DNA from: Rhodovulum sp.
GTDB taxonomy: Bacteria > Pseudomonadota > Alphaproteobacteria > Rhodobacterales > Rhodobacteraceae
Length of the DNA stretch: 44,936 nt
Assembly (NCBI GenBank): GCA_049975105.1
Contig: JBNGDM010000001.1
Span: forward strand, 1 to 44,936
Reading direction: 5' to 3'
Shown here piece by piece: positions 1-36,130 of the stretch (its first letter is position 1; the number at the start of each line of letters is the position of its first letter). The notes under the pieces are model-generated. The model did no database searches, was not told the origin of the DNA, and was given only the letters and a program-made list of their open reading frames with translations. The position numbers were made by a program, and so were the translations under genes.

Positions 1-113
1 CTCCTTGGTGGGAAGCGGCGGCAGGTATGCGTCTGTGCGTCAGGTTAGGAAGAGTCAGGTTTACCAGGCCCCCTTGGGGTGGGGCAGAGGCACAGACGGC
101 GGGCAGTGAGACC

Positions 114-236
114 TTAAAGCAGCGCGGGCAAATGTAGTCCGGCAAACAGTGCAACCATCAGTGCAGCAGCCCCTAGAGCGTCCTGCCAAAGCGTGGCTCG
201 GGTACGAGACAGAACATTGGTCAGTTCGGACATCAT
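114..236 (-). CDS. Small hydrophobic protein, 40 aa (MMSELTNVLSRTRATLWQDALGAAALMVALFAGLHLPALL), predicted LexA-regulated
   Basis: Hand-translated and below the ORF-track cutoff. ATG at 236 (second ATG at 233), TAA at 116-114, AGGAGG SD at 250-245 (8 nt upstream). C-terminal half is hydrophobic (one predicted TM helix). Two LexA boxes lie upstream. Confidence 0.8.
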   Translation of the reverse strand: MMSELTNVLSRTRATLWQDALGAAALMVALFAGLHLPALL

Positions 237-261
237 TGGGGCAACCTCCTGCTGTATCTAT

Positions 262-276
262 GTTTCCTTTTTGTTC
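262..276. promoter_or_regulatory. LexA (SOS) box, proximal, one mismatch
   Basis: GTTT-ccttttt-GTTC versus the alphaproteobacterial consensus GTTC-N7-GTTC; overlaps the predicted -10 region of the small ORF promoter. Confidence 0.65.
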
Positions 277-296
277 TCCTTTTGAGCGCGTGTAAA

Positions 297-311
297 GAAC
301 TTTTTAAGAAC
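297..311. promoter_or_regulatory. LexA (SOS) box, perfect
   Basis: GAAC-tttttaa-GAAC, an exact alphaproteobacterial LexA direct repeat with an AT-rich 7-nt spacer; abuts a -35-like TTTACA (296-291, minus strand). Confidence 0.85.
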
Positions 312-338: not shown

Positions 339-5360
<5,022 letters not shown>

Positions 5361-5414
5361 TGCCAAGGTCTCCGCTTTGTCGTCGTTGAACTGTCACGAG
5401 TTCTGACGAACAAT

Positions 5415-5437
5415 GGTTAATTTCACCTTACCTTAAC
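5415..5437. promoter_or_regulatory. Putative CtrA site in the ctrA promoter (autoregulation)
   Basis: TTAA-tttcacc-TTAC at 5417-5431 (consensus TTAA-N7-TTAA, one mismatch; TTAACC half-site on the minus strand) plus an extra TTAAC at 5433-5437 in an AT-rich intergenic region. Confidence 0.55.
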
Positions 5438-5483
5438 AATAATCCTAGCATTTACAATTTTAAGTTGTCCAGTTAATTTCTCG

Positions 5484-5762
5484 TCAAGGTTGTCTGAACT
5501 CTTTGAGTGCGGTGACCTTCAGCCCGCGTACGCCATGATCGCGCACCGCGCGTTTCCAGCTATCCAACTCTTCCTCGGACAAGGCGTACCGCTCCAGCGC
5601 TTCGGCCTCGGAGATCAACCCTGCGGCAACCGCCTTGACCACGGCGGCCTTCCGGCTTGCAACCCAGCGACGCGTGTCGACCGGCGGTAAATCCGCCCGC
5701 GTCATGGTGGTTCCGTCCGGCAGCGTGACGGTCCGCGGCCCGTCGATACGTTTCAGAAACAT
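5484..5762 (-). CDS. sciP: CtrA inhibitor SciP (DUF1153)
   Basis: 92 aa with ADLPPVDTRRWVASRKAAVV...YALSEEEL..W signature; directly upstream of ctrA. Confidence 0.93.
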   Translation of the reverse strand: MFLKRIDGPRTVTLPDGTTMTRADLPPVDTRRWVASRKAAVVKAVAAGLISEAEALERYALSEEELDSWKRAVRDHGVRGLKVTALKEFRQP

Positions 5763-33808: not shown

Positions 33809-36130
33809 CTACTCCCCAGATACCGCTCGTTTCGTGTCATGGTCTTCGCCTCGACCAGCCGTTTCGCCATCTTCTGGCACGGCTGGTACAGCCATGCCGG
33901 GTTGTGCGCCCTCGACCACCGGCAATCGGACCACTGCCATTGCGCCGCGATGGGCGCCGCGCCCGAATGGCTCGGCGTCGGTCAATTCCAGCGTGCCGCC
34001 ATGTTCCTCGATGATCTTCTTGACGATCGGCAGACCAAGCCCCGTACCGCTCTCACGCGTGGTCACATAGGGTTCGAAAAGTCGCGCCCGGTCCTCGGGA
34101 AGACCGATGCCGTTATCCGCAATCTCAATCACCCCGACTCCGTGCTCTTTGACAAGACGGATCCGTATCTCGGGGACAAAGTCCTTGGGCACACCCTTTT
34201 CGCGCAGCGATTCAATTGCTTCGCCTGCATTCTTTACAAGATTGGTCAAAGCCTGGCTGATCATCGTGGCGTCTAATTCGGCCGGCATCTCCTCCTCAGG
34301 GAGTGACGATACGAAGCGCACGTCGGGCTGACCGCTTTCCTGCAGCAACAGCGCGTCCTTAACCAAAGCGGCAAGATCCACCGGCTTACGTTCCGGTTCG
34401 GGCATGCGAGCAAATCTCGAGAACTCGTCAACGATCCGGCGCAGATCGCCGGTCTGACGGACGATCACGTCCGTATACTGGTCTAGGGTCTCGGCATCCT
34501 CGCCAAGTCTGCCACGAAACTTCCGCTTGATCCGTTCGGCTGACAATTGGATCGGCGTAAGCGGGTTCTTGATCTCGTGGGCGATACGGCGTGCCACATC
34601 GCCCCAGGCCGCCATACGTTGCGCCGTCACCAAGTCGGTGACGTCATCAAAGACGACCACATATCCCTCTCGCCGACCGTCCGCCCCAGGCCGCGTGGCC
34701 ATACGCACCAACAGGTTCTCCATCTTGCCCGACCGGATCAGACGGATTTCCTCTTGCGCGGTGGCGCGGTGCTCATGCCGCAGACGATTGAACAGCGCCG
34801 CAAATTCGGGAACCACGACTCTTAGTTCCTGCCTGTTGTCGCGCGCCTCGTCCATTTGCAGCAGGGACAGTGCCGAACGGTTCATGAATTCCACTCGCCC
34901 CTCTGCATCCACGCCCATCACGCCTGCAGTGACCGAGGAAAGAACAGAATCGAACAGCCGCCGCCGCCGTTCGGTTTGTCGATTATTCTCCAGAAGAGCG
35001 TCCCGCTGCCTCTTCAACTGCCGGGTCATTTGATTGAACATACGCCCCAGCATTGCAATTTCGTCGTCACCGGAGTCCTCTCGCACCTGTACGTCGAGAT
35101 CGCCCGCACCAACGCGCTGTGCCGCACCAGCCAGCCGGCCGACCGGACGCGATAATCTCTCTGCGAACCACATGCCCAGCCAGACTGCCGCTAATATAAG
35201 GATCACCGCGAAACCGAGATACAACAGTCCGAATTCGAACAGCATACGGCCACGCTCGTTCTCAAGTTGCTGATAGAGCCGCGAGGTCGCCTGCGTATCG
35301 TCCAGCAGACTCAGCAACTCGCCATCCACCTGGCGCGAGATATACAGATAGCGGTCCACATAGGCCTCGAGCGCAATTAGCGCCCGGAACTCGTTATTGT
35401 CCCAGTCCTCGATGATGACCGTGTCGCCGTCGCCAGCGCGGCTCAGGTCTACCTTACTGGGCTGTTCATAGTCGAACAGGTAGGATCGTTCGCCCCTTGC
35501 CTTAATCGCGCCGCTGCCATCGATGACGTAGGCCTCTTTCAGACCGCGCTGCACCTTGGCTTGAGCCTGGGTCAGCAATTGCCGCAACTCGCCATCAGAA
35601 AGAAAAAAGGTCGCCTGGCGCGCGATGTTGAGATACCCCGCCAGCGTCGCTGCATCGGCAGCCAGGTCGCGACGATGTTCATCTTCGTAGGCCTCGGCGG
35701 CGGAAAGCGATGCGCCGACCACGTTCCGGACGCGTTCCGAAAACCAGCCCTCCAGACCGATGTTGATCGTCAGCCCGGCAAAGACCGCAACCAGGACCGT
35801 GGGCACAAGCGCTATGGTCGCGAACACCCCGGTCAGGCGCAGATGCAGCCGAGATCCTGCCGAATGACTGCGACGGGCGGCGACCATACGCGCGATCTGG
35901 CGAAACACAAGTGCTGCCACCACGAGCGCATAGACCAAATCGGCCAGTAGAATCGCCCTTAAGCCGTGGGATGTCGCACCTTGGTCGAGCGGCCCAAGCA
36001 AAAGAAAAGTGCCTATTGCGAGTACCGGCCCCAACATTACCAATCCCAGCGTCGCCGCATTACGCGTGCGCCGTGATGGACGTTTACGAAACAACCAGTC
36101 GATGGCCATTCGGCCGGCGGCGCTGGCCAC
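33809..36130 (-). CDS. ntrY: Sensor histidine kinase NtrY
   Basis: TM segments, [33 protein letters not shown] and HATPase. Probable GTG start at 36130. Confidence 0.94.
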   Translation of the reverse strand: MASAAGRMAIDWLFRKRPSRRTRNAATLGLVMLGPVLAIGTFLLLGPLDQGATSHGLRAILLADLVYALVVAALVFRQIARMVAARRSHSAGSRLHLRLTGVFATIALVPTVLVAVFAGLTINIGLEGWFSERVRNVVGASLSAAEAYEDEHRRDLAADAATLAGYLNIARQATFFLSDGELRQLLTQAQAKVQRGLKEAYVIDGSGAIKARGERSYLFDYEQPSKVDLSRAGDGDTVIIEDWDNNEFRALIALEAYVDRYLYISRQVDGELLSLLDDTQATSRLYQQLENERGRMLFEFGLLYLGFAVILILAAVWLGMWFAERLSRPVGRLAGAAQRVGAGDLDVQVREDSGDDEIAMLGRMFNQMTRQLKRQRDALLENNRQTERRRRLFDSVLSSVTAGVMGVDAEGRVEFMNRSALSLLQMDEARDNRQELRVVVPEFAALFNRLRHEHRATAQEEIRLIRSGKMENLLVRMATRPGADGRREGYVVVFDDVTDLVTAQRMAAWGDVARRIAHEIKNPLTPIQLSAERIKRKFRGRLGEDAETLDQYTDVIVRQTGDLRRIVDEFSRFARMPEPERKPVDLAALVKDALLLQESGQPDVRFVSSLPEEEMPAELDATMISQALTNLVKNAGEAIESLREKGVPKDFVPEIRIRLVKEHGVGVIEIADNGIGLPEDRARLFEPYVTTRESGTGLGLPIVKKIIEEHGGTLELTDAEPFGRGAHRGAMAVVRLPVVEGAQPGMAVPAVPEDGETAGRGEDHDTKRAVSGE

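What the first reader, a model, noticed from the sequence alone, without database searches (positions are those of the whole stretch)
114..311. Unannotated 40-aa membrane peptide under predicted LexA control: candidate SOS division inhibitor or type I toxin
Seen in sequence: a 40-codon minus-strand ORF absent from the ORF track, with a perfect AGGAGG SD, an amphipathic N-terminal half and a hydrophobic C-terminal half (ALGAAALMVALFAGLHLPALL). It is preceded by a perfect GAAC-N7-GAAC box and a second near-perfect box. Established: GAAC-N7-GAAC is the alphaproteobacterial LexA operator, and LexA-repressed single-helix peptides are known as division inhibitors (Caulobacter SidA) and membrane toxins (E. 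coli TisB, DinQ). Inference: this is a DNA-damage-induced checkpoint or persistence peptide. I know of no characterised equivalent in Rhodobacterales, and I see no sequence similarity to SidA or TisB, only the same architecture.
Basis: partly seen in the sequence, partly recalled or inferred. Interest (0 to 1): 0.85.

Follow-up and report, generated by a model that had tools for sequence, protein, structure and literature searches.

The report
SOS peptide with ftsZ/ftsW-pairing RNA tail
Just behind the DNA-repair gene recG, most Rhodobacteraceae carry a small gene with DNA-damage (LexA-type) repressor sites, a 40-residue predicted membrane peptide and a folded RNA tail whose repeated motif is complementary to a sequence kept at the ribosome-binding sites of ftsZ, ftsW and three other cell-cycle genes, so it is likely this family's still unidentified damage-induced brake on cell division.

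Summary
Observation confirmed. The 40-codon ORF is a real gene. It was found in 350 of 400 family genomes and lies behind recG in 57 of 58 loci. It is under purifying selection (pooled dN/dS 0.27-0.29), and a perfect LexA box abuts the -35 in 58 of 58 loci. The scan noted this unit at least seven times before on other genomes.

New here: the 3' tail holds about four mostly unpaired UGYCY motifs (208 against 49 expected). Their complement, [CG]AGGC[AG]G, is kept at the ribosome-binding sites of ftsZ (26/28), ftsW (12/16), ccrM (11/20), clpP (10/19) and ddl (9/18). It occurs at only 8 of 810 starts of 54 control gene families, and at 0 of 25 ftsZ genes of other alphaproteobacterial families.

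Best reading: an SOS-induced two-part division brake, made of a DinR-like 3'-UTR RNA and a SidA-like membrane peptide. Pairing, induction and peptide function are predicted, not shown. Covariation is only suggestive, and this genome's own seed is a weaker variant. A type I toxin is unlikely. No family model and no paper on the unit were found.

The parts
114..236 (-). 40-aa peptide gene: amphipathic N-half, conserved R11-x3-T15-L-x-Q-D19-A-x-G22 and G-L34-H-L-P37, uncharged hydrophobic helix 20-40
245..250 (-). Shine-Dalgarno AGGAGG (perfect in 14 of 58 orthologs; a GGAG/GAGG/AGGA core in 55 of 58)
262..276 (-). second LexA-type box GAAC-N7-AAAC over the presumed -10/+1; same TGAGAACAA-type element and opposite-box layout as this genome's recA promoter
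291..296 (-). presumed -35 hexamer TTTACA abutting box 1 (inferred; transcription start not mapped)
297..311 (-). perfect LexA-type box GTTC-N7-GTTC
1..113 (-). conserved structured 3' tail (predicted sRNA), cut off by the contig end inside its terminator hairpin
100..106 (-). 5' single-stranded seed motif CUGCCCG (family form mostly CUGCCUG)
52..58 (-). loop motif, here CUGACUC, a one-base variant of the genus form CUGCCUC
31..97 (-). basal stem (arms 92-97 and 31-36) with compensatory changes, enclosing two hairpins
1..22 (-). 5' arm and loop of the conserved CCGCCGC...GCGGCGG-U-tract terminator (3' arm missing from the assembly)
339..2453 (-). recG, the upstream neighbour in 57 of 58 loci (context; the unit has its own promoter)

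Best explanation
This is a real LexA-boxed gene unit of Rhodobacteraceae that likely acts as a two-part DNA-damage brake on division: its RNA tail is predicted to pair with the ribosome-binding sites of ftsZ, ftsW, ddl, ccrM and clpP and lower their translation, while its 40-residue peptide would sit in the inner membrane and likely hinder a late divisome protein. Steps: (1) LexA sits on two boxes that clamp the -35 and -10 (boxes shown; binding inferred from lexA and recA carrying the same box). (2) RecA-triggered LexA cleavage releases a transcript of about 270-350 nt (inferred). (3) The tail, perhaps cut out by RNase E/Hfq like other Rhodobacter 3'-UTR sRNAs, displays 3-4 CUGYCY seeds in single-stranded parts (structure and motif excess shown computationally; processing untested). 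(4) The seeds occlude the non-canonical CAGGCGG/GAGGCAG ribosome-binding sites (complementarity and conservation shown; pairing untested). (5) The peptide binds a conserved partner through R11/D19/G22/H35/P37 (purifying selection shown; partner unknown; FtsW is only an analogy to SidA and YneA). Rough odds by step: gene real 0.97, LexA-repressed 0.9, RNA represses these targets 0.5, peptide itself blocks division 0.4.
For: Gene: 350 of 400 family genomes. Pooled dN/dS 0.27 (genus) and 0.29 (51 CDS) against 0.46-2.1 in the five other frames; the right frame has a stop in 0 of 51 and the +1 frame in 48 of 51. Operator: box 1 perfect in 58 of 58 top loci and 16 of 18 divergent loci; box spacing 23 nt in 54 of 58; own lexA and recA carry the box. 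The probable R. sphaeroides ortholog RSP_2624 (between recG and nifU, as in our loci) is transcribed and rises in polysomes under singlet oxygen (+1.08 log2, p=0.005), as lexA does (+0.86) (PMC3688512 supplement). RNA: z=-4.18 for the closest complete tail; 6 of 19 pairs with two-sided changes, 0 of 500 shuffles reach the covariation score; UGYCY 208 against 49+-7 in shuffles, unpaired 0.61-0.68 against 0.33. Targets: motif at ftsZ 26/28, ftsW 12/16, ccrM 11/20, clpP 10/19, ddl 9/18 against 8/810 starts in 54 other families. ftsZ 16/16 in the genus and 0/25 in other families; ftsW 1/7 in other families; 2.5% background in the own genome. Among 59 gene families, species-matched pairing energy ranks mraZ, ftsZ, ftsW and clpP first and ccrM sixth, each about 1.6-2.2 kcal/mol better than shuffled tails. 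Matched pairs beat mismatched pairs for ftsZ (Watson-Crick length p=0.0027) and ccrM (p=0.002 and 0.008). Divergent G023 has a private 12-nt tail-ftsZ complement. Precedents: DinR (PMC10907235 abstract), SidA (PMC4211646 passages), YneA (PMC13396833).
Against: No experiment shows induction by DNA damage, LexA binding, processing of the tail, pairing, or a division phenotype. The singlet-oxygen rise is small, recA barely moved in the same data (+0.20), and RSP_2624 is mapped by synteny only. The motif was defined after seeing ftsZ and ftsW. Both it and the seeds are SD/anti-SD-like, so only 3-4 bases carry the specificity. Kin are not independent: the family-wide pattern may be one ancient event. 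None of 36 matched/mismatched tests passes Bonferroni; ftsW, clpP and ddl are not significant; controls rpmD (p=0.048) and nuoH (p=0.040) also ring. nuoK ranks fifth. G354, G357 and apparently G352 have the peptide without a recognisable tail yet keep the ftsZ motif, and G019 has peptide and tail but its ftsZ and ftsW lack the motif. The window's own 5' seed ranks the closest relative's ftsW in the top 4.2% but ftsZ only in the top 29%, own ccrM top 7.6% and clpP top 53%; its loop seed is mutated. ftsZ was not found in this 86%-complete assembly. mraZ carried the motif here but in 0 of 13 locus rows elsewhere. The R. sphaeroides list of 79 sRNAs has no entry where I estimate the locus lies.
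Confidence: 0.55

Rival explanations
1. Peptide-only checkpoint. The peptide blocks a late divisome protein, the tail only stabilises or terminates the mRNA, and the motif at ftsZ/ftsW/ccrM/clpP serves another regulator or is a tuned weak Shine-Dalgarno.
For: The peptide is conserved where the tail is lost (G354, G357), and the ftsZ motif stays in those genomes. SOS membrane inhibitors of FtsW are widespread (PMC13396833).
Against: The tail has a fourfold excess of one mostly unpaired motif that is the complement of the motif on those genes. A scan of 189 terminators in the own genome flagged only 4 other loci, which by eye are coding sequence or gene ends rather than a rival multi-seed RNA. 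StsR and UpsM act elsewhere: UpsM binds mid-gene in ftsW and mraY (PMC8266604).
Confidence: 0.17
2. The unit is SOS-induced but not a division brake through the peptide. The peptide modulates another membrane protein (protease, kinase, transporter), and the RNA tunes targets or is titrated by sponges, for example in recovery after damage.
For: Conserved polar and small residues suggest a specific partner but do not name it. The motif also occurs upstream of many non-division genes in the own genome (75 of 2962). UdsC contains the target-type motif GAGGCAGUC, read from its probe in the PMC8625941 supplement.
Against: Five of five gene families with the conserved motif are division or cell-cycle genes, against none of 54 others; two of the five were chosen for carrying it in the own genome.
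Confidence: 0.15
3. Type I toxin of the TisB/DinQ kind: an SOS-induced membrane-depolarising peptide that makes persisters and is held down by an antisense RNA.
For: LexA boxes, single helix, structured mRNA tail; a convergent nifU-like gene could give antisense read-through.
Against: No charged residue in positions 20-40 in 51 of 51 sequences and almost no hydrophobic moment there (0.01-0.04), unlike the charged amphipathic TisB helix (recalled). No match to any Pfam toxin model among 26 members at E<=10. Fixed, nearly always single-copy locus. The 5' UTR is usually only about 30 nt, and tail-to-SD pairing of 3 bp or more is seen in only 11 of 49.
Confidence: 0.1

Closest known systems
dinI-DinR of Klebsiella pneumoniae (PMC10907235, abstract read)
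   Same: LexA-controlled small gene whose 3' end yields an sRNA that occludes the ftsZ ribosome-binding site and stops division
   Different: The host gene here encodes a membrane peptide, not DinI. The tail carries 3-4 repeated seeds and is predicted to reach several genes. No Rfam match at gathering score. Pairing here is only predicted.
SidA of Caulobacter crescentus (PMC4211646, passages)
   Same: SOS-controlled, tiny, single-helix inner-membrane protein of an alphaproteobacterium
   Different: 40 aa against 29 aa; no credible profile match outside Rhodobacteraceae in 298 class genomes; FtsW binding not established here
YneA of Bacillus subtilis (PMC13396833, passages and Discussion part 1)
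   Same: SOS-induced transmembrane helix; that paper proposes FtsW as a common target of such inhibitors
   Different: YneA needs its LysM domain to inhibit; this peptide has no outer domain
EcpR1 of Sinorhizobium meliloti (PMC4414408, passages)
   Same: alphaproteobacterial sRNA with GC-rich loop seeds that represses cell-cycle mRNAs
   Different: EcpR1 lies near divK and the term LexA does not occur in that paper; it has a different seed and validated targets gcrA and dnaA, and ftsZ1 was tested there and not regulated
StsR/UpsM and UdsC of Rhodobacter sphaeroides (PMC8266604, PMC8625941, PMC9779115)
   Same: same family; RNA control of dcw genes (StsR/UpsM); 3'-UTR-derived sRNA behind a small hypothetical gene (UdsC)
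   Different: Different loci and promoters (RpoH-dependent; the UdsC promoter and ORF start do not match); UpsM binds mid-gene, not the ribosome-binding site
TisB/IstR-1 and DinQ/AgrB type I toxins (recalled)
   Same: LexA-repressed single-helix peptides with structured mRNA
   Different: uncharged helix, short 5' UTR, no antitoxin found, no Pfam match

Membership tests
LexA (SOS) regulon of Rhodobacterales | GTTC-N7-GTTC / GAAC-N7-GAAC operator at the promoter, as at lexA and recA | tested here: met
   perfect box at the -35 in 58/58; own lexA and recA carry the box
LexA (SOS) regulon of Rhodobacterales | LexA binding and induction by DNA damage | not testable with these tools
   only an indirect singlet-oxygen dataset
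SidA family | sequence similarity to SidA | tested here: inconclusive
   no SidA sequence was in hand; no NCBIfam/Pfam family matches consistently; profile finds nothing credible outside the family in 298 unnamed class genomes
SidA/YneA-type SOS division inhibitors (works-like) | small single-pass membrane protein under LexA | tested here: met
   (prediction)
SidA/YneA-type SOS division inhibitors (works-like) | blocks division through FtsW/late divisome | not testable with these tools
   needs an expression phenotype, suppressors and a binding assay
DinR-type SOS 3'-UTR sRNA (works-like) | structured, terminator-ended 3' tail of a LexA-boxed gene | tested here: met
   terminator pattern in 53 of 58 loci
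DinR-type SOS 3'-UTR sRNA (works-like) | accessible conserved seed complementary to the ftsZ ribosome-binding site | tested here: met
   weaker for the window's own copy
DinR-type SOS 3'-UTR sRNA (works-like) | seed-target covariation across species | tested here: inconclusive
   ftsZ and ccrM nominally significant, none after correction for 36 tests
DinR-type SOS 3'-UTR sRNA (works-like) | processed RNA accumulates, binds Hfq, represses translation | not testable with these tools
   needs stranded RNA data and reporters
Known Rfam RNA family | match at gathering score | tested here: not met
   12 loci, only sub-threshold Ysr141 hits (best 34.9 bits against 196)
Type I toxin (TisB/DinQ kind) | amphipathic helix with charged residues in the membrane segment (recalled) | tested here: not met
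   0 charged residues in positions 20-40 in 51 sequences
Type I toxin (TisB/DinQ kind) | antisense antitoxin RNA | tested here: inconclusive
   no promoter found on either strand of one locus, but the scan also misses the gene's own promoter

The most novel reading that the evidence does not exclude
Rhodobacteraceae have a family-wide post-transcriptional division regulon. ftsZ, ftsW, ddl, ccrM and clpP gave up the usual Shine-Dalgarno for a shared AGGC[AG]G site, which one SOS-induced multi-seed RNA silences at once, and the same transcript encodes a membrane peptide that blocks the divisome. That would be a dual-function RNA-plus-peptide DNA-damage checkpoint in place of SulA or SidA.
Probability: 0.3. 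Interest if true: 0.9.

Novelty: new variant of a known kind. Interest (0 to 1): 0.76.

Why it matters
I found no described SOS division inhibitor for Rhodobacterales (roseobacters, Rhodobacter, Paracoccus) in the searches made. This unit is a near-core candidate with a named probable ortholog in a genetically tractable model (R. sphaeroides RSP_2624). The tail-to-RBS complementarity turns 'conserved RNA of unknown role' into a base-level prediction that a reporter with compensatory mutations can settle in weeks. The conserved motif at ftsZ, ftsW, ddl, ccrM and clpP points to an unrecognised layer of cell-cycle control in this family whichever factor reads it.

Tried and rejected
Complex prediction of G007 FtsW with the G007 peptide: no verdict (scores 0.24, 0.44, 0.00; mark 0.32); not used for or against.
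RNA runs for L007: no RNA holder listed; not used.
UdsC/RSP_7527 as the same locus: rejected, because its promoter and ORF start differ.
Pfam, NCBIfam, PADLOC, PDB, Rfam and the ESM Atlas gave no named family.
The search for related loci would not take alignment A1, so I have no organism names for the loci. The R. capsulatus lexA paper is not held.
An NCBIfam accession recalled as SidA was another family.
Tail fold-back on its own SD as a conserved lock: rejected (11 of 49).
mraZ, ftsL, ftsI, rsmH, clpX, ftsA, ftsQ, mur genes, lpxC, and nuo and ribosomal-protein genes as carriers of the motif: not conserved.
Supplements of PMC6238624 held nothing on RSP_2623-2625; file 13 of PMC3688512 was not searched; bioRxiv supplements are closed.
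Rows left out: duplicates L037 and L056 and weak class hits L033 and L034. L191 and L192 are not orthologs. The locus of the unpublished genome G076 was left out of the ftsZ count, and 4 more class ftsZ loci were not parsed. Antisense pseudo-families were dropped. G019, G346, G036, G032 and G356 were left out of the fractions. The G036 ftsZ start was undetermined.

Full report
Observation. The minus strand of 114-236 encodes the 40-residue peptide described. AGGAGG lies 8 nt before the ATG, a perfect GTTC-N7-GTTC is at 297-311 directly beside TTTACA, and a one-mismatch box of opposite orientation is at 262-276. The window is the start of contig C1 of a 3.5-Mb, 86%-complete assembly; the closest named homologs are from Rhodovulum. 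The upstream neighbours are recG, a ligA-like ORF (by eye), ctrA and sciP. One perfect box is not above chance in 45 kb. Among 123 perfect boxes in the genome, however, this one has the most AT-rich spacer and is the only AT-rich one with a near-perfect partner, and the genome's lexA and recA promoters carry the same box. recA has the same two opposed boxes. That this motif is the Rhodobacterales LexA operator is recalled knowledge, echoed in a passage of PMC6473078.

It is a real, near-core gene. A profile of 26 orthologs hit 350 of 400 family genomes at E<=0.001, nearly always once. In 298 genomes of other alphaproteobacterial families it gave only two weak hits, one with an in-frame stop. 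Some misses are divergent copies: G033 and G019 have the gene behind recG, while G346 and G036 do not. In the 58 best-scoring loci, box 1 is perfect in 58, box 2 is present in 58, recG is upstream in 57 and the peptide is 39-42 aa. In 18 more divergent loci box 1 is present in 16 and box 2 in 17. Box spacing is 23 nt in 54 of 58 but 20 nt in this genome. Nei-Gojobori dN/dS is 0.07-0.25 for the window against genus members where dS is not saturated, and 0.27-0.29 pooled, against 0.46-2.1 in other frames. In 51 ungapped sequences D19, G22, L30, L34 and P37 are invariant and positions 20-40 hold no charged residue; in the wider 146-sequence alignment only D19 is invariant. AlphaFold gives one helix, pLDDT 85.5. 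No Pfam, NCBIfam, PADLOC or PDB family fits, and the Atlas shows only unnamed 40-42 aa clusters. The D. shibae table has no CDS in the 400 nt after recG. R. sphaeroides has RSP_2624 between recG and nifU, and our loci have a convergent NifU/SufU-like gene there, so RSP_2624 is probably the ortholog (synteny only). Under singlet oxygen it rises +0.58 log2 in total RNA at 45 min and +1.08 in polysomes; lexA rises +0.86 and recA +0.20 in polysomes (PMC3688512 supplement rows).

The RNA tail. After the stop codon lies a tail of about 90-210 nt ending in a conserved bulged terminator; a relaxed pattern finds it in 53 of 58 loci, and the window's own is cut by the contig end. The closest complete tail folds with z=-4.18. 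On 12 genus sequences 6 of 19 pairs show two-sided changes and no shuffle reaches the covariation score, though the structure was derived from this alignment. The commonest hexamer is CUGCCU (49 of 58). UGYCY occurs 208 times in 53 tails against 49+-7 in shuffles and is mostly unpaired (0.61-0.68 against 0.33). There is no Rfam family. It is not UdsC. The list of 79 R. sphaeroides sRNAs has no entry between 976 kb and 1,290 kb of chromosome 1, where I estimate the locus lies from gene numbering.

What the motif matches. DinR, a LexA-controlled 3'-UTR sRNA that blocks the ftsZ ribosome-binding site in Klebsiella (PMC10907235 abstract), prompted a look at ftsZ. CAGGC[AG]G lies within 25 nt of the ftsZ start in 26 of 30 family loci and 16 of 16 genus loci, and in 0 of 25 parsed loci of other families, which use ordinary GGAG. 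It is in 7 of 9 further determinable family loci; the two misses have no peptide hit but also no recG hit. CUGCCUG[CU] pairs with this site with one G-U. ftsW, fetched for the SidA idea, carries GAGGCAG, the complement of the tail's CUGCCUC, in 17 of 21 mostly genus loci and 12 of 16 across genera, against 1 of 7 in other families.

Controls on the motif. I fixed the pattern [CG]AGGC[AG]G and screened the dcw, nuo and ribosomal-protein clusters of 20 genera; only ftsW and ddl stood out. ccrM and clpP carried it in the own genome (background 75 of 2962 rough starts) and held up in other genera, while mraZ did not. Final fractions: ftsZ 26/28, ftsW 12/16, ccrM 11/20, clpP 10/19, ddl 9/18, against 8 of 810 starts in 54 other families, maximum 9%. 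An accessibility-weighted helix model over 18 genomes ranks mraZ (n=7), ftsZ, ftsW, clpP, nuoK and ccrM at the top of 59 families, with ddl eleventh. In the genus, the 5' seed puts ftsZ in the top 5% of 2962 background windows in 10 of 16 genomes.

Results against. Matched-versus-mismatched tests are nominally significant for ftsZ (p=0.0027 by Watson-Crick length, 0.05 by hybrid energy, 0.10 with accessibility) and ccrM (0.002-0.037). They are not significant for ftsW, clpP or ddl, two controls also fall under 0.05, and none of 36 tests survives correction. The motif and seeds are SD and anti-SD variants, so the specific information is a few bases, and the family pattern may be a single ancient event. 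Three genomes without a recognisable tail keep the ftsZ motif, and G019 has the tail but not the motif. The window's own copy is a weak example: its loop seed reads CUGACUC, its 5' seed ranks the nearest relative's ftsW in the top 4.2% but ftsZ in the top 29%, and no ftsZ or ftsW start was found in the assembly. Nothing here tests the peptide's function.

Mechanism and comparison. I commit, at 0.55, to an SOS-induced two-part brake: a DinR-like multi-seed RNA acting on ftsZ, ftsW, ddl, ccrM and clpP, plus a membrane peptide that likely works like SidA or YneA (PMC4211646 passages; PMC13396833 passages and Discussion part 1). It is not shown to be a member of the SidA family, and it fails the tested feature of TisB-type toxins (recalled definition). 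Known RNA control of division in this family (StsR/UpsM) acts at the dcw leader and mid-gene (PMC8266604 passages), and EcpR1 is a rhizobial analog with other targets (PMC4414408 passages). Nine of my ten literature searches sought the unit or its context and none returned a paper on it; subscription papers and supplements are not covered. Seven earlier notes of this scan describe the same peptide-plus-tail unit (read after my); a search for the ftsZ-pairing idea returned none. Other papers seen: PMC9779115 (parts 1-2 of 6 and a supplement search), PMC8625941 (passages, supplement parts 1-2), PMC6238624 (passages and a supplement search), PMC3441632 (one passage).

Verdict. A real, undescribed, family-wide LexA-boxed unit with a newly specific and easily tested RNA mechanism; new variant of a known kind; interest 0.76.

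Noticed in passing
L097-L142, L212-L231, L292-L340 (ftsZ, ftsW, ddl, ccrM, clpP starts): Family-wide non-canonical ribosome-binding motif [CG]AGGC[AG]G shared by five cell-cycle genes; ftsW often has two tandem copies. It is of interest even if another factor reads it.
   Followed up: yes
own genome, contigs C13, C53, C60, C64, C306, C322, C423: Further carriers of the motif, named by eye only: D-Ala-D-Ala carboxypeptidase, dnaB, PBP1A, lepB, rnc, a DUF721-like gene, a zinc-ribbon gene; conservation not tested.
   Followed up: no
PMC8625941 supplement: Northern probes imply that R. sphaeroides UdsC and UdsG contain the target-type motif GAGGCAG (possible sponges) and that UdsD contains the seed-type CUGCCUC (possible second regulator).
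   Followed up: no
L192:1501-1626: G360 has a second, weakly similar 41-aa hydrophobic peptide (E=0.0036) without LexA boxes or tail, among short ORFs that look phage-like by eye.
   Followed up: partly
window 262-311: Box 1 to box 2 spacing is 20 nt here against 23 nt in 54 of 58 loci, and the TG before box 2 is GG, so this promoter may be weaker or shifted.
   Followed up: partly
L175, L190, L035: Peptide and LexA boxes kept but RNA tail missing or displaced (G354, G357, G352): natural tail-less variants.
   Followed up: partly
window 35723-35737: The second perfect GAAC-N7-GAAC lies inside an ntrY-like CDS with a GC-rich spacer; probably chance.
   Followed up: yes
window 339-5762: The unit ends the conserved sciP-ctrA-ligA-recG gene block, linking it physically to the CtrA cell-cycle locus.
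   Followed up: no
L033, L034: Two weak profile hits outside the family (E 0.003 and 0.007, one with an in-frame stop) were not examined.
   Followed up: no
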